Shown one piece after another: positions 1 through 13,100 of a stretch of DNA of 64,000 nucleotides. A model generated the notes under the pieces. The model did not search any database, was not told the origin of the DNA, and worked only from the letters and a program-made list of their open reading frames with translations. Both the position numbers and the translations under genes were made by a program. This DNA comes from Spizellomyces punctatus DAOM BR117 (taxonomy: Eukaryota): NCBI GenBank assembly GCA_000182565.2, contig KQ257456.1. One strand, given 5' to 3'. The first letter of the stretch is position 1. Each line of letters starts with the position of its first letter.

Positions 1-8
1 ACTGGCTC

Positions 9-97
9 TACAATTGGGGTTAGTAGTGCGGAGCCGGTGGGTATTGGCACTAGCACCCGCACCAGGGATTGAACCGCGCGACAACCGGTTCGGAAAC
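9..97 (-). ncRNA. Fanzor omegaRNA: scaffold 97->24 plus guide derived from the flank (23->~9, CUAACCCCAAUUGUA...)
   Basis: Minus strand reads GTTTCCGAACCGGTTGTCGCGCGGTTCAATCCCTGGTGCGGGTGCTAGTGCCAATACCCACCGGCTCCGCACTA, starting ~20 nt after the Fanzor stop and overlapping the right TIR. Hairpin GAACCG/CGGTTC and stem GGTGCGG/CCGCACT. Matches the SpuFz scaffold as I remember it. Guide length is assumed. Confidence 0.88.
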
Positions 98-117
98 CTT
101 AATCTAACTAGTCTACG

Positions 118-2597
118 CTACGCTACCACTGGAACACCCCTCCTGAACACCTCTGGTCTACCGTGTCCATCCAACATTGATTGCATGATTGCCAGCATGT
201 TGCAGGTTGACAGTGTATCTCGATTCCAGTAGCGCATTGTCCAGGCTTGCTGCAAACAGTTAGGGTTGGTACAACCCAGCAATCCATGGACTTTTTCAAC
301 CTTGCCTTCTTGTCATCACCAAGGTCTTGAATGAGGTCATGTTTTGAAGTCCTTTTCAAGGAAGTGTAACGACGAGGACGTCTTCGAGAGATCGCGAGTA
401 AGCCCAAATCGGACGCGGGAAGCACGAATCGCGTGACCAACTCCACCGATTGGGTTACCGCGACCGAAAAAACCGGTTCGGAGAATGGCAATTGGCGCAT
501 TAGATTTCAGCGTGCCTCGTACAACCTGTGGAGGCCCGAGCCAGTGCGGAAAAGGAAGAGATCGGTACCGCCACCAATAAATCAGTTGCGGTGCAGCGAC
601 ACCCATTAGTTTAGTTTAGTTTAACAGTTTATCCAAGAATCTTGTATAAAAAGGATGTATTCAATAAAATAAGTCGGGGGCAGAAGCCGTAGCGACACAA
701 AATCCCCATAACTCGCTTCTCAACTCCAATCTTAGGTTAACAGGAACCTAACAGAGCGCTTCAACGGCCTGATCACCCGTACCGAAGCCTCTAAATCCTG
801 CTCGGTTCACAACTAACCGACTCTCCTTGCCTCTCGCCCCCAAGTCGCTACCGACGCCCAAAGAAAGGATTTGGAGACTACGATTCCTAGTACGGACACC
901 CACACAACCTGCTAGGAGACCCAAGTTGTCTTTACTGTAGTCTACCAACAAAAAATCCGTTACATGGTGGAGAAGCGCGACGAACCGCCTTCCCCTCTCA
1001 AATTCAGCTGAAAACCTTATTCGGTCGTACCGATCCTGCTCCGCTTAAAGAGGGTGCGCCAACCTTTTGTCTTTGATGAGGTCTGAAATCTTGCAGTTCG
1101 ACTGGCATCGCTCCAATCACCCATCATGACAGTAAAGTTTTCACCATACTTGTTGCACATGTTGGATATGAGGTCTGATTCACTCTTCTGATGGTTTATG
1201 AATGTGTGCCATTTCCACCACGTGTGGGCAGGATGTGAGTAGAACTCCTTGCGACAATCCCAATCAGCATGGCGAACAAGAAGGTAGCGAGTAAAATCCA
1301 TGAGGTTCATTGTTTTGTGGCTAGGAATTCATGATTCTATGAGGTCAATATCCCCCTTCTTCATCTGCTGCCTTTGCCTTTGCTGTCAATGGCTACCTGT
1401 CTCCATGGCTCACTGGTTTGCAGTGTAATGAAATGTTGTACCAATGCTGTCTTGGCAGTAGAGAATGTCACGCTTGTTTGGGTCGATAGCAACAACATTC
1501 TCTGCTCAACAAGCAGGTAAGTTGTTCTCCACATATACTGCCTTCACCTCAGCTTCTAGGGTCTTTGCTGACTTTCTCGCTCCATGCTTTCTGTACTTGT
1601 CAGCATTGGGGTGTTTCAAATACACAGAAACCGAGGTACTGTCCATTGTGATCGAGCCTTCAAACTGCATATGGCAGCGAGACCGAAAAGCCTTGGTATG
1701 TAGATTGCAGACGCGCATCCACAGATCATCCTTCTCTAATGCTTCTGCTTCTCGCTGCATGATGCAAAGAATATGAGAGTAGAGAATGATGGTGTCGATC
1801 CGCACATGGCTTTGGATGAGGGAGTGGCGAAGTGGGATTGCACTGAACCGTCGAAATCCATGCTTTTCATATAGGCTTGACAACCAACAGTAGGCAGGGA
1901 AGAAGGCGAGAGGGTCTACAGCAACTGAATATGTGAGCGGCTGGTCGGAAAGGGGAATGAAGGACCACATCTCTTCTAGAAGCTCACTCTCTTCAGCAGT
2001 CAAGTCATCGAGTGACTCGGGCACAGTATCAAAAAGGAAAATTGACTTCAAGTAGTGAAGATGAGCAAAGAAAGCCTTTTGCACATCACTTTTAGGTGGC
2101 AGTTGCTGCTTCTGTCCCTTCACATCGAGCCGCAGATTGATATATCAAAGGAGCATCTGCATAAAATGCTCTTGAACATTGACTTTCAGGTTCATCATCA
2201 TACTTGCTGTCAGGTAATTAATTGACTGCTGCTCACCTCATAGATTTGGATGAACAAAGCTGACAATGCAGCAGTACTGACAAATGTATGGCAACAAGCA
2301 TCCGCATAGCACCTTCTTTGCATCTGTTCTTGGTTGCCAAGCCTCCCCCTTGTTGAGAAGATAGAGAATTGCTTCGATTGTATCTTGATCTACCATGGGA
2401 ACGGATGGCGCAGAGAGGATGTAGAATTTGAGAGCATGGGAAGCATGGTCAGCAAGTTGATGGATAATGGCAATGTAATCAAGAAGACGCTGTCGGTAGG
2501 TCTCATTAGGCAGGAAAGCTTTTGCAAAGGAAGTCTTGTTGCAAGTATGTAAGCAGGTAGGTAGCTTTTCAAGCTTTTGCTTTTTCTTTGGTGGCAT
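118..2597 (-). pseudogene. Fanzor1 (eukaryotic TnpB/Cas12-like RNA-guided nuclease) pseudogene
   Basis: ORF pieces 2238-2597, 1506-2123 and 1017-1310 are in one frame and read like SpuFz1 as I recall it (MPPKKKQKL..HTCNKTSFAKAFLPNETYRQRLLDY; RuvC-I VVAIDPNKRDILY; GDWSDA..KGWRTLFK). The C-terminus resumes at 364 (FLEKDFKT*PHSRPW**QEGKVEKVHGLLGCTNPNC..RYWNRDTLSTCNML..GVPVVA*, stop 118-120). Nine in-frame TGA stops and an LTR insertion/deletion at 365-1030. Confidence 0.95.
365..1030 (+). mobile_element. Truncated LTR retrotransposon: 600-bp 5' LTR (365-964), PBS (965-~980) and a short internal stub
   Basis: Termini TGTAACG (365-371) and CGTTACA (958-964) are perfect 7-bp inverted repeats with TG...CA ends. 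They are followed directly by TGGTGGAGAAGCGCG, complementary to a tRNA 3' end ...CUUCUCCACCA. TATAAAAA at 645-652 and AATAAA at 663-668. Confidence 0.88.
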
Positions 2598-3106
2598 GAT
2601 GATATCTGTGGAAAAAGATGAAAGCCTGGGAAAATGGGCGACGACTTATATAGGATTTTTTGAATCAAACCATAGTTCATGAGTCTAAATCGAGTAAAAT
2701 TATGATTAAATTGGTTGGAATCTATGTACTAGTGCCAAAGTCCACCGGCTCCACACTATGAATGTGCTAGTTTCTACAGCATATGCCTTCATGCTAGACT
2801 ATTGATGTTTTGATTTCGTTCGATTGACCGACAATGTGTTGTGCTTCTTTCATCGTCTTTTTCGTAAGCTCTGTTTTCTTATCTTACGACCCAGTGCGGA
2901 TGGATGAAAGAATAGGCTGGCACATAGCTTCTCGGAACTGGCTCTGTTGACCGTAAATGGGGCGCGCGGCCACGAGCGGTGATGGCTGTGCAGAGCCAAA
3001 TGCTTAGCCACGCAGGAGATAGCCAAGCCCTTTTCAATGTTCACATAATATACCCAACTGGAGCTCCAGATAATTCTCCATAGCGACATTTTGAGACAAG
3101 ACAATA

Positions 3107-3967
3107 ATGGAAGCGATACCAAGACCCACCAAGACAGGCAATCCATTTGGTGCCGGAGTCAGACGCTCATGGGCACCACCAAGCCCAGATGACGACCAAA
3201 GTGTTGGCGACGAGGTTGCTCAGCTCGTGGCCCTCTCTAAAAGAACACTAGAAGTACAGGAGGAGTCTGCGAATGCTACTGCTAGGGCATTGGCAACCGC
3301 CAAGCAAACGGAACAGCTGGGAATGGAGAACTTGGTGAAGCTCAATGCACAGGGTGGTAAGTAGAGATGATCTATGTGGTTTGCATTAGTCCATGTAGCT
3401 TTGACGAACATGACTAAAAGTCCATTCGCTTTGTTAGAACAACTTGACTCAATACATGAAAAAACCGAAGAGACTGGACACAAAATCAAAATTGCCGAAG
3501 CGAAAACCTCGTACCTCGACAAACTCTCTGATTCCTTCCTCCGGCCAATATTTGGCGGTGAAAAGCAAGTTAAACAAAAAGATTCCCAACCATTTGAGTG
3601 GAAAGCACCGCAGGGACCGGACGGCAAACCTCTGTGGGGACGACGTGTTAGCAGTTTACCTGAGGAATTCCCTGGCGCTATCGCAAAAGGAGCCGAACCC
3701 AAGAGCACAGTCAAGCCTGGCGGAATGCTGGGAGACTGGGCGGACGAGGAGGACAAGATAAAATCTGAGATGCATGAACAAGTGATTGAGGAGAATATGG
3801 GACAGATTAGTAATATTGTCAAGGGAATCAAGTACCAAGCGCAGGCGATGGGACAAGAGATAGAGCGACAGAGCCATGTCATTTCAAGGACGGAAGGGAA
3901 TGTGATGGAGCAAACCGATAGAATTCAGGGTGTAAATAGAAGATTGGATAAGATTAGCAGAAAGTAG
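3107..3967 (+). CDS. SEC9: Sec9/SNAP-25-like Qbc SNARE
   Basis: Two SNARE helices (..LVKLNAQGEQLDSIHEK..; ..IEENMGQISNIVKGIKYQAQAMGQEIERQSHVISR..) joined in frame across a GT-AG intron at 3357-3437. Confidence 0.8.
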
Positions 3968-10691: not shown

Positions 10692-12329
10692 TCTAGGCAA
10701 GTCATAAAGATTGTGAAATGACACTTAAATCACCGGGCAACTGGCCTGAACTATTTATAATATGGCAATGTCTGTTATCTTTGGAATTAGGACACCATAT
10801 GAAGGTCTCCATTAGTATGTGGTATAGCCACAATAGATGTATTCAAACTTTTGGCTTCCGACATGCAAATCGCAAAGAACGCCGATTCACTTGTCCTTCA
10901 TTTTGACCTAACCATATCGGCACTCAAACATAGGCCTCAAATCAAAGGAGCGGAGGGCTTCTGGAAGGGACTCCCTCGGTTGCCAGGTGCAAACAACAAA
11001 CTAAACTCAGTGGCTCCATGCTATGTTGCCCACATAGTAACTTTGACAGAATAAATTCCAAATTCTGTCGGTAATTAAAGTTCTGGCTCCATGTACTAAT
11101 AAGATGTTCACATTCGACTTTGGTAACTTTGGGCCACACTTTCAATATGGCTGAAGGATCATGCAAATGAATAGCCCGCAAACATTAGCGCGTGAAAATA
11201 ACAAATATGGTCGGGCAGTCTGGTTATTGTTTGACATCCGGAACTGATGAACTGATTGAAACTTCAAGAAGAAGTGGATGCAATCAGAACATATTGACTG
11301 AGATATTTGGCCTCATTCGAGTCCTCAAATGATGATGCGGAAATAAAACTTCTGTAAGTTCTGTAAGTAGGCCAGCCGTAACATAGTCCCTCAACAGCTA
11401 ATCTACTAGTCAATATGAACTAGCAATTTCCATCAACTTCTTGCGAATAAAGAATTATCCCATAAATAACCATAAATAAAGGAAACTACGGTCCCACCAA
11501 TTTTGAATGATGACATGCCATTCTCCGGTTTTTTTCCGGCATAAAAAACGAGGGTAACTTCAATGAATATAACTTCCAGGTATTACTTGGACTACAACCG
11601 AACCTCCGGCTCTTCCGTAGTTGTTTCACTCTTCACAAACTATAAACGCCTCCTTGGTCGGAAGTAGCTGCGTTGTCATTGTTTTCTGAAAATAGTTCGA
11701 AATCTGACAACAGGATGAAAGACCCTGATATGTGAAAATCTGGATATTCCGTGGTTCAGTCCTCAACACATCGCTTTTCCGCCGTAAGTTTCTTTCATGC
11801 GCGATAGGCGCCAATTACCAGCGGAAACCCTGCATTCGCATAATACGTTTGAGATAAGAATGTCCGTAAACTATTCCCAAGGTAAAATCTCGCAAAGTTT
11901 CTCCCCTGACTTTATTCACAGTTGCACTTGGATTGGTCGCAATAAAATATGAAAACCAGCGAGGAAATGGATCGTACGTGGCGCACAGTAAAAAAATGCA
12001 TACAACAAATCTAGAAATTCCATTGCATCCAACGAGGTAGGTGCAGCATTACGGAGCAACAGACCCATTCTGGTACAGCATCTTGCTCATCTCCAACAGA
12101 TGGAACGCGTCAAAATCCAGGACAGCTCGACAGAAAGGACGTTGCAGGCCATAATACAGATTTGTGTAGCGCAGACAACCACAAAACTGAGGACTTCTTA
12201 TCGAAATGTCCTTTTTAAACGGATACAATATTTCAGATGTCAATCCTGAAATCGATATGTGTATATAATTTGTAGATAGCAATATTATCCCGTTAACCAT
12301 TACCGCAGTCCTATGCTGTCATATTCATA

Positions 12330-13083
12330 GTGTGAACGTGGTTGAAAATGGCACTAGGACCCATTATTATCCGGATTAGTCCGGTTAATCGTATCGCATA
12401 ATCAGAACCCCCATCTATCGCTCAAAGCGGTGAGGCATGCATGCTAATGTTCTCCAAACTGCGGTGTGGCACATGCTAATGTAACGTTTTTTCTTTCAGC
12501 TGGACCCCATTTTGCCACATTCGAGGTCTATAAAGGGGGGCCTTCTGTCTCTTCCCTCTCTCCCCTTCCTCACCAGTTCCTCGACTCTCAAAGCATCTGC
12601 CAAACGCTCAAGCAACTCTCAAGTCCATCATGAGAGTACTGCTCTGGTGCTGAGGACCTCGCCCTCCCGACTACCAGCAACTGGAACCAGCGCAGCTTCG
12701 GAACCAACAAAGCTGTTATTATGCTGCCACATTAGTTGAGCTTGGTTGGTATGTACTGATGGCATCATCTCTTTTCATGTTATTCTGTCACTGACATGCA
12801 GTTTTTTTCTCTAGTCTCCAAGCCTTGTCCCTGAAAATCCCCCAGCTTGTGACGCTGCCCAGTCGATTCGCTCCTGGATGCAAGAGTCTGGCTTCAATGC
12901 CATCAAGAGTTCTGGATCAAGGCCTAGTAGGGACCGCGTGTGGTGGTGGGCAGTTATCCGGTTAGAACAACCGTTACGTATTGCGTGCATAATTGCCTAG
13001 TAGTTAGTTAGCTTTTCCGAACCGGTTGTCGCCGGTTTATTCCCTGGTGTAGTAGCTAGTGCCATTTTCTGTCACCTCTACAC
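12330..13083 (+). mobile_element. Non-autonomous Fanzor-family 'ghost' element (no intact Fanzor ORF)
   Basis: Left flank CATA (12326-12329), then GTGTGAACGTGGTTGAAAATGGCACTAG. The right end reverse-complements to GTGTAGAGGTGACAGAAAATGGCACTAG and is followed by TA (13084-13085). An omegaRNA scaffold overlaps the right end. Confidence 0.88.
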
Positions 13084-13100
13084 TAAGAATAAGTCACTCA
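13012..13100 (+). ncRNA. Diverged Fanzor omegaRNA: scaffold ~13012-13085 plus guide AGAAUAAGUCACUCA...
   Basis: TTTTCCGAACCGGTTGTCGCCGGTTTATTCCCTGGTGTAGTAGCTAGTGCCATTTTCTGTCACCTCTACACTA is colinear with the scaffold at 97->24. Hairpin AACCGG/CCGGTT and stem GGTGTAG/CTACACT. Guide length is assumed. Confidence 0.82.

What the first reader, a model, noticed from the sequence alone, without database searches (positions are those of the whole stretch)
1..2760. Complete Fanzor1 locus with TAM and guide in homing geometry
Seen: TIRs, TA duplication, a Fanzor reading frame and an omegaRNA ending at the right TIR. Removing the element reconstructs the minus-strand site ATT-CATA-CTAACCCCAATTGTAG, i.e. 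CATA directly 5' of the sequence that becomes the guide. Established: SpuFz1 uses a 5'-CATA TAM and a guide taken from the right flank. Inference: this copy's RNA is programmed against its own empty allele.
Basis: partly seen in the sequence, partly recalled or inferred. Interest (0 to 1): 0.75.

Follow-up and report, generated by a model that had tools for sequence, protein, structure and literature searches.

The report
Decayed copy of published Fanzor transposon
This is a broken, already catalogued copy of the SPu-1 Fanzor1 transposon of the chytrid fungus Spizellomyces punctatus, whose nuclease gene is dead but whose guide-RNA gene is intact, so it is an ordinary member of a well-described family.

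Summary
There is a 33-nt terminal inverted repeat, a TA on each side, a Fanzor1 frame very close to SpuFz1 (PDB 8GKH, E 1e-97 to 1e-53), and the 75-nt omegaRNA scaffold ending at the right end. Removing the element and one TA does put CATA directly in front of the 15-nt guide match.

The locus is not "complete". The frame carries 9 in-frame TGA stops. A 669-bp LTR of a retroelement sits in it at 365-1033. Twenty-one codons are missing there, including catalytic Glu541 and the first zinc-finger CxxC.

Window base 1 is a contig end next to a 6,313-N scaffold gap. The real locus therefore probably holds a full-length retroelement.

The locus is printed in Supplementary Data 1 of Saito et al. 2023 (S. 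punctatus DAOM BR117, supercont1.7, gene model SPPG_04428). The CATA-plus-flank geometry is family-wide. The canonical SpuFz1 locus, one more Fz locus and a ghost element in this window all show it, and the principle is in print.

No empty allele and no RNA evidence were found. Verdict: already known, low interest.

The parts
9..23 (-). 15-nt flank that would be the omegaRNA guide (CTAACCCCAATTGTA). Window 1-23 is all the flank the window holds.
   Evidence: By analogy with the 14-15-nt guides reported in Saito 2023 section 7. The same 23 nt follow the right end in the contig beyond the assembly gap.
24..25 (.). TA at the right end (putative target-site duplication). It forms the last two bases of the omegaRNA scaffold.
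   Evidence: Bao and Jurka 2013 passage on putative TA TSDs. Review section 6.2.
24..98 (-). 75-nt omegaRNA scaffold with two stems.
   Evidence: The 3' 65 nt are identical by eye to the canonical SPPG_07727 locus. Positions U5, C6, C7, U16-G20 and G22 fit the residues named in Saito 2023. Fold. It keeps 8 CpGs, o/e 1.09.
24..56 (-). Right-end terminal inverted repeat.
   Evidence: I1. Annotated as 'end' 3911..3940 in the published record, which is window 53-24.
118..364 (-). C-terminal Fanzor fragment (SpuFz1 aa 556-638 plus the stop codon at 118-120). It has 3 in-frame TGA at 337-339, 316-318 and 313-315. Asp606 and the second CxxxxC are present.
365..1033 (+). 669-bp LTR of a retroelement, interrupting the Fanzor frame. 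The boundary is uncertain by about 2 nt. It begins with TG and holds TATAAAAAGG and AATAAA.
   Evidence: Contigs of three runs (X1, X9, X11) start at 365 or leave at 1033. A 6,239-nt X9 contig begins with this unit and runs on. The loose end behind 1033 is identical in X1 and X11. CpG o/e is 1.23.
1032..2597 (-). Fanzor fragment for SpuFz1 aa 1-534, 78% identical, in one frame. It has 6 in-frame TGA (2238-2240, 2145-2147, 1506-1508, 1410-1412, 1386-1388, 1329-1331). The start is MPPKKKQKL. Asp383 is present.
2598..2725 (-). 5' untranslated and promoter stretch of the element.
   Evidence: Alignable by eye with the Fz locus printed.
2726..2758 (-). Left-end terminal inverted repeat (one CpG of the core now reads TpG). 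TA at 2757-2758.
   Evidence: Annotated as 'end' complement(1206..1235) in the published record, which is window 2758-2729.
2759..2760 (-). CA just outside the left end. Together with the TA it reads CATA, the SpuFz1 TAM.
   Evidence: The conserved CA is reported by Saito 2023 section 7. TAM.

Best explanation
Window 24-2758 (minus strand) is one of the catalogued SPu-1 elements of Spizellomyces punctatus DAOM BR117. SPu-1 is a non-autonomous TIR transposon that carries a Fanzor1 (SpuFz1-family) gene and, at its right end, the gene for the omegaRNA.

In this copy the nuclease gene is dead. It has nine CGA-to-TGA type stops. A retroelement LTR is inserted in the frame. The 21 codons that hold catalytic Glu541 and the first zinc-finger CxxC are lost. 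The decay looks like deamination of methylated CpG. The 75-nt omegaRNA scaffold is essentially unchanged.

Most likely mechanism, with what supports each step:
- Shown by others: the scaffold is transcribed into 14-15 nt of flank, SpuFz1 binds it, and the complex cuts DNA that has 5'-CATA followed by the guide match.
- Shown here: the occupied junction reads ACTA before the guide match, so it is not a target. A chromosome without the element (CA-TA-flank) would be a perfect target.
- Inferred: Fz protein from intact copies loads this RNA in trans, as shown for ghost omegaRNAs. It cuts an empty homologue or sister, and repair from the occupied copy restores the element.

I put the family-level homing or retention role at about 0.5. 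I put current activity of this particular locus at about 0.2-0.3.

The compact 2.7-kb form in the window is probably (about 0.7) a collapsed contig end. The real locus would then hold a full-length LTR retroelement of about 7 kb.
For: Identity:
- PDB hits to SpuFz1.
- 17 of 21 database relatives are named S. punctatus DAOM BR117, best 88% identity.
- tblastn map.
- The window's neighbour protein occurs once in the 9 supplementary files of Saito 2023, in the record 'NW_015971543.5 Loci with Fz (reversed)'. The printed sequence and the 'end' and 'fz' features of that record match the window.

Decay:
- 9 of 9 stops are TGA.
- Of 55 aligned SpuFz1 Arg positions, 28 are changed, 27 of them to stop, Gln, His, Cys or Trp.
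- CpG o/e is 0.45 and 0.29 in the two Fz pieces, against 0.90 in the rest of the window, 1.23 in the LTR and 1.09 in the scaffold.
- 5mC is reported as confined to transposons in Spizellomyces (passage).

LTR.

Gap and duplicated 685 bp.

Geometry:
- for this copy.
- The only match to CATA plus guide in the window, at up to 3 mismatches, is the occupied junction, and both mismatches lie in the TAM.
- Same CA|TA left junction in 4 of 4 elements seen.
- TAM strictness and ghost omegaRNA activity.
Against: - No RNA holder was listed, and no contig or read evidence shows that this omegaRNA is made.
- No empty allele or excision joint was found, so the TA as a true duplication stays 'putative', as in Bao and Jurka.
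- No transposase for SPu-1 is known (Saito 2023 Discussion).
- A cut-and-paste excision may leave a footprint that would spoil the target.
- The fold of this scaffold alone is not better than shuffles (z -1.38; 18 of 200 shuffles fold as well).
- With two sequences the covariation is not significant (143 of 500 shuffles reach it).
- Full-length versus solo LTR is inferred from the gap size and a duplicated contig end, not from reads.
Confidence: 0.9

Rival explanations
1. This would be a complete, self-sufficient Fanzor1 locus whose own protein and RNA home into its empty allele.
For: The ends, the TA, the scaffold and the CATA geometry are all present.
Against: There are 9 in-frame TGA stops. 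SpuFz1 aa 535-555, with Glu541 and CPRC, are missing. An LTR sits in the frame. The RefSeq model SPPG_04428 reaches 298 aa only by splicing out two stops, and it ends at the third.
Confidence: 0.02
2. The CATA at the left junction reflects only where or how the element integrates, or CA and TA are part of the element. On this view Fanzor has no homing role, and this omegaRNA is an inert relic of a dead copy.
For: The biological role of Fz is stated as unknown, and no transposase was found within the IRs (Saito 2023 Discussion). TA TSDs are only 'putative'. No empty site was found here.
Against: The CA is one-sided. The right flanks after the TA differ in the 3 elements whose right end I saw (CT, TC, AG). 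A symmetric TA-targeting transposase would not produce that. The conserved dinucleotide plus TA equals the experimentally strict TAM. All 8 CpGs of the scaffold are kept, while 27 of 55 Arg codons decayed by CpG-type changes (my hypergeometric estimate, not run in a tool, gives about 0.008).
Confidence: 0.35
3. The compact form is real. On this view there is a solo LTR in the Fz gene, and the 6.3-kb scaffold gap is an artefact between two overlapping contigs.
For: The two contig ends share about 685 bp that are nearly identical, differing by one C in a homopolymer. The two Fz/LTR junctions share no target-site duplication and 21 codons are missing, which points to a rearrangement.
Against: A sized gap of 6,313 N is not what overlapping contigs usually get. 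The duplicated piece has the length of one Sanger read. A 6,239-nt contig in X9 shows that this LTR family has full-length members of matching size. Saito 2023 reports Ty3/Gypsy insertions in Fz genes.
Confidence: 0.3

Closest known systems
SPu-1 element / SpuFz1 locus SPPG_07727 of Spizellomyces punctatus (Bao and Jurka 2013; Saito et al. 2023; PDB 8GKH)
   Same: Same genome and same family. It shares the 30-33-nt TIRs, the TA on both sides, the CA before the left end and the MPPKKKQKL start. The protein is 78% identical over aa 1-534. The 3' 65 nt of the omegaRNA scaffold are identical. The guide is taken from the flank right after the TA.
   Different: The ORF has 9 TGA stops and lacks aa 535-555. 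A retroelement LTR, probably a whole element, is inserted. The 5' untranslated part is about 75 nt shorter than in the canonical locus (by eye). The guide sequence differs, as expected for another site.
Ghost Spu-1 elements (Saito et al. 2023)
   Same: An omegaRNA gene without a working Fz gene, usable only in trans. One ghost lies in this same window at 12328-13085 with the same CA|TA left junction.
   Different: Ghosts are short (about 550-nt core) and have a variant IR and stem 2. This copy still has the full-length, Fz-type sequence and the canonical scaffold.
IS200/IS605 TnpB-omegaRNA restorative homing (as summarised in review PMC13565253)
   Same: The TAM equals the sequence left of the element. 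The guide equals the flank right of the element. An emptied site is therefore the nuclease's target and the occupied site is not.
   Different: IS605 excises seamlessly as single-stranded DNA through TnpA and makes no duplication. SPu-1 has TIRs and a putative TA duplication, no known transposase, and its excision chemistry is unknown. Half of its TAM is the duplicated TA. Homing has not been shown for any Fanzor, as far as the texts I read say.

Membership tests
Fanzor1 (SpuFz1 family) | Sequence similarity to SpuFz1 over the REC/WED/RuvC regions | tested here: met
   (E 1.1e-97, 1.1e-53, 2.7e-56 to 8gkh_P). (418 of 535 identical over aa 1-534).
Fanzor1 (SpuFz1 family) | Intact RuvC triad Asp383 / Glu541 / Asp606 | tested here: not met
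   Asp383 (AIDPNKRD) and Asp606 (WNRDTL) are present. Glu541 lies in the missing block aa 535-555. The copy is a member by descent, not a working nuclease.
Fanzor1 (SpuFz1 family) | Zinc finger CxxC ... CxxxxC | tested here: not met
   CPRC (aa 548-551) is missing. CTNPNC is present.
Fanzor1 (SpuFz1 family) | Open reading frame | tested here: not met
   9 in-frame TGA.
SPu-1 transposon | 30-33-nt terminal inverted repeats of the family sequence | tested here: met
   Identical to the 'end' features of the published record.
SPu-1 transposon | TA on both sides (putative TSD) and CA before the left end | tested here: met
   That the TA really is a duplication could not be tested, because no empty site was found.
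SPu-1 transposon | Length of about 2.1 kb | tested here: inconclusive
   2,735 bp in the window. Removing the 669-bp LTR gives 2,066 bp, and adding back the 63 missing bp gives about 2.13 kb. The real locus is probably about 7 kb longer.
SpuFz1 omegaRNA | 75-nt scaffold of two stems ending in the right IR, followed by a 14-15-nt variable guide | tested here: met
   The sequence matches the canonical locus and the residues named. Two-stem fold. 22 of 23 pairs are kept in the ghost homologue, 2 of them by double changes.
SpuFz1 omegaRNA | Expressed as an 88-90-nt RNA and bound by Fz | not testable with these tools
   No RNA holder was listed. Contigs cannot show small RNAs.
TnpB-type restorative homing | An empty site exists, carries TAM plus guide match, is cut and is repaired from the occupied copy | not testable with these tools
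   The geometry alone was shown. No empty allele was found.

The most novel reading that the evidence does not exclude
The guide-RNA gene of this dead copy is being kept intact by selection. All 8 scaffold CpGs and 65 of 65 bases are unchanged, while about half of the Arg codons of the ORF decayed. The reason would be that decayed and ghost SPu-1 copies borrow Fz protein from the intact copies and use their own omegaRNA to drive themselves into empty CATA-bearing homologues. The one-sided conserved CA would then be the trace of that filter: only insertions that recreate a TAM survive. That would give Fanzor1 a demonstrated natural role as a shared homing nuclease for a family of mostly non-coding riders.
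Probability: 0.25. Interest if true: 0.55.

Novelty: already known. Interest (0 to 1): 0.12.

Why it matters
It matters little as a discovery. The locus is in the supplementary data of the paper that established SpuFz1, and the family was described in 2013.

It is useful as a worked example in three ways:
- It shows how SPu-1 copies die, through CpG decay and retroelement insertion, while the guide-RNA gene persists.
- It shows that the occupied junction (ACTA) is protected from its own guide, while the inferred empty site (CATA) is not.
- It warns that the compact form in the assembly sits at a contig end.

The open question it touches, what Fanzor does in its host, is not made more testable by this copy than by the intact ones.

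Tried and rejected
- Whole-genome search: no genome is held for this window.
- Pfam: nothing for six stop-free pieces, and nothing useful even for SpuFz1 itself. Pfam in this copy is therefore blind to the family.
- Rfam: no match in 1-3000 at E up to 1.
- ARAGORN: no tRNA in the window. I had noticed a T-arm-like GGTTCAATCCC in stem 1 of the scaffold.
- My first idea was that window 400-480 was a diverged duplicate of Fz aa 512-545, or the end of a small TIR element. I dropped it when laid contigs showed 365-1033 to be one repeat unit with sharp ends.
- Sequencing runs: no RNA holder was listed.
- Laid contigs of X1, X9, X13 and X11: no contig joins across the element. Bin 2761-2880 has no cover in any of the 4 runs. 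The only joints listed were 364->2002 on opposite strands (one X9 contig) and an 81-nt GT..AG skip at 3355->3437. Fifty loose ends and 301 pieces were not shown.
- Empty site in environmental DNA: exact scans of metagenome contigs with the 23-nt right flank and with a 24-nt left flank gave 0 and 0.
- Unbroken-string searches of the supplements for the junction and the guide gave 0 of 9 files, because the GenBank text is spaced. The locus was found through the neighbour protein instead.
- Covariation between this scaffold and the ghost scaffold: 2 double changes, not above shuffles (143 of 500).
- Earlier findings of the scan: none.
- The Cell 2024 structure paper has no occurrence of 'TSD' or 'homing' in the text.
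Full report
WHAT IS IN THE SEQUENCE

The element lies on the minus strand of window 24-2758.
- A 33-nt inverted repeat (24-56 and 2726-2758, 85% complementary) bounds it.
- Its 15-nt core occurs without mismatch only at these two places in 64 kb. There were 7 matches at up to 3 mismatches, 2 of them exact, against 2.0 expected at that looseness.
- A TA stands at each outer end (24-25 and 2757-2758).
- On the minus strand the left junction reads ATTCA|TA|GTGTGG. The right junction reads CCGCAC|TA|CTAACCCCAATTGTAG.

THE PROTEIN FRAME

- Three stop-free pieces hit the solved SpuFz1 chain 8gkh_P at E 1.1e-97, 1.1e-53 and 2.7e-56.
- A database search returned 21 relatives among 1,788 candidates. 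Seventeen are named S. punctatus DAOM BR117, the best at 88% identity, and none is identical.
- tblastn of SpuFz1 (P0011, SPPG_07727, 638 aa) puts aa 1-534 on 2597-1032 in a single frame (418 of 535 identical) and the C-terminus on 363-121.
- The frame has 9 stops, and 9 of 9 are TGA.
- Of 55 aligned Arg positions of SpuFz1, 28 are changed here. Twenty-seven of these changed to stop, Gln, His, Cys or Trp, which are the products of C-to-T or G-to-A changes at the CpG of CGN codons.
- CpG observed/expected is 0.45 and 0.29 in the two Fz pieces, against 0.90 for the rest of the window.
- A passage in PMC12695648 says that in Spizellomyces 5mC is confined to transposons. Deamination of methylated CpG is therefore the likely cause. 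That link is my inference.
- SpuFz1 aa 535-555 are absent. That block holds catalytic Glu541 and the CPRC of the zinc finger. Asp383, Asp606 and CTNPNC remain.
- The copy cannot encode an active nuclease.

THE INSERT

- Window 365-1033 is foreign to Fanzor. I laid contigs of four runs on 1-3600.
- A 6,239-nt contig of X9 begins with exactly this 669-bp unit (2 other letters) and continues beyond it.
- Contigs of X1 and X11 start at 365 or leave at 1033. The 30-nt loose end behind 1033 is the same in X1 and X11. The letters before 365 differ between records.
- The unit starts with TG, holds TATAAAAAGG and AATAAA, and has CpG o/e 1.23.
- I read it as the LTR of an LTR retroelement in plus orientation. 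The superfamily was not determined here.
- The two Fz/LTR junctions share no duplicated target bases, which fits the 21 missing codons.

THE OMEGARNA

- The 75 nt at 98-24 (minus strand) sit 19 nt after the Fz stop codon.
- By eye, the 3' 65 nt are identical to the canonical SPPG_07727 locus printed in Supplementary Data 1 of Saito et al. 2023.
- Further 5' there is one G-to-A change, which turns a G-U pair into A-U, and a one-base difference in a T run.
- Numbered from 98, the bases U5, C6, C7, U16, G17, U18, C19, G20 and G22 agree with the residues the paper names.
- The fold has the two stems the paper describes (-30.1 kcal/mol). By itself it is not better than shuffles (z -1.38; 18 of 200 shuffles fold as well).
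- The scaffold keeps all 8 of its CpGs.
- In the canonical locus the guide seen in the structure (U76 C77 U78 .. A81 .. G83) is the flank directly after the terminal TA. Here the guide would therefore be 23-9, CTAACCCCAATTGTA.

THE GEOMETRY

- SpuFz1 needs 5'-CATA, and any change of a TAM base abolished cutting.
- In the window, CATA plus the guide has one match at up to 3 mismatches. That match is the occupied junction itself, with both mismatches in the TAM (ACTA).
- The occupied site is thus not a target, and the inferred empty site would be.
- This is not peculiar to this copy. The CA|TA left junction is present in 4 of 4 elements I saw: this one, the canonical locus, another Fz locus printed, and a ghost element at 12328-13085.
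- The bases after the right TA differ (CT, TC, AG) in the 3 elements whose right end I saw.
- Saito et al. state that Fz and ghost loci have a conserved CA upstream of the 5' IR (section 7, read whole). Their IR feature includes the TA.
- In sections 7 and 11, which I read whole, they do not spell out that CA+TA equals the TAM. They call the biological role unknown and raise TnpB-like copy-back as a possibility.
- A 2026 review says that the 5' TSD is read as part of the TAM and that the 3' TSD is part of the scaffold (section 6.2, read whole).
- A 2023 preprint says the same of the 3' TSD in insect Fanzor1 (passage).

THE LOCUS IS PUBLISHED

- The first 40 residues of the neighbouring ORF (3107 onward) occur once in the paper's 9 supplementary files.
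- They lie in the record 'NW_015971543.5 Loci with Fz (reversed)', 11,856 bp, supercont1.7, between SPPG_04429 and SPPG_04427.
- Its printed sequence equals the window, with window position = 3964 minus record position. Its 'end' features are window 2758-2729 and 53-24. Its 'fz' features are the two fragments.
- RefSeq models part of the pseudogene as SPPG_04428. A supposed intron in that model removes two of the stops.
- Bao and Jurka 2013 described the family as about 2,100 bp with 33-bp TIRs, putative TA TSDs and 17 full-length copies (passage).

THE ASSEMBLY CAVEAT

- Window base 1 is the last base of a contig. In the record it is followed by 6,313 N.
- A second contig then starts inside the LTR and repeats about 685 bp: part of the LTR, the Fz C-terminus, the right end and the same 23-nt flank. 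It differs by one C in a homopolymer, and it continues to the annotated end of SPPG_04427.
- This confirms the flank.
- It also suggests that one read-length piece from the other LTR junction was attached to this contig. The gap would then be the interior of a full-length retroelement.
- The 6,239-nt X9 contig has a fitting size.
- I give this reading about 0.7, against 0.3 for a real solo LTR with a spurious gap.

WHAT COULD NOT BE SHOWN

- No genome was held.
- No RNA holder was listed.
- No contig joins across the element.
- Exact scans of metagenome contigs with either flank found nothing.
- Expression of this omegaRNA, its loading in trans, the existence of an empty allele and repair-mediated copy-back are all inferences.
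- Pfam and Rfam gave nothing.

VERDICT

This is a real feature, correctly recognised as Fanzor1. It is a decayed, retroelement-disrupted and already catalogued SPu-1 copy. Its 'homing geometry' is a family property whose parts, and the general principle, are in print.

Noticed in passing
window 12328-13085 (+): A second, short SPu-1-type element without a Fanzor gene (758 bp), of the 'ghost' kind. The left end reads ATTCA|TA|GTGTGAACG.., the right end reads ..CCTCTACACTA, and the following flank is AGAATAAGTCACTCA. Its 75-nt scaffold folds well (z -2.97; 0 of 200 shuffles as good). Its stem 2 differs from the Fz-type scaffold by two compensatory pairs. Its right IR differs from the Fz-type IR at 10 of 30 positions by my count.
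   Followed up: partly
window 12317-12327 and 13086-13096: The flanks of the ghost element are themselves nearly palindromic (TGTCATATTCA ... AGAATAAGTCA). The inverted repeat found runs 11 nt beyond the TA on each side. This could be a palindromic target site or chance. The Fz copy's flanks are not palindromic.
   Followed up: no
window 121-2597 against 365-1033 and 24-98: There is a sharp contrast in CpG content inside one locus. The Fanzor coding parts have o/e 0.29-0.45, with all 9 stops being TGA at Arg positions. The inserted LTR has 1.23 and the omegaRNA scaffold 1.09, with all 8 CpGs kept. This suggests old methylation-driven decay of the ORF, a younger LTR, and constraint or homogenisation of the RNA gene.
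   Followed up: partly
window 1506-2597 (-): The public annotation carries a protein model (SPPG_04428, 298 aa) built on this pseudogene. Its 'intron' (window 2118-2312) removes two of the TGA stops, and the model ends at the third.
   Followed up: yes
window 3356-3436 (+): An 81-nt GT..AG intron of the neighbouring gene SPPG_04429 is skipped in one contig of run X9. X9 is flagged 'DNA?', so that run seems to hold cDNA at least in part.
   Followed up: no
window 1: The window starts at the last base of an assembly contig, with a 6,313-N scaffold gap just outside. Features at this edge should be read with that in mind.
   Followed up: yes
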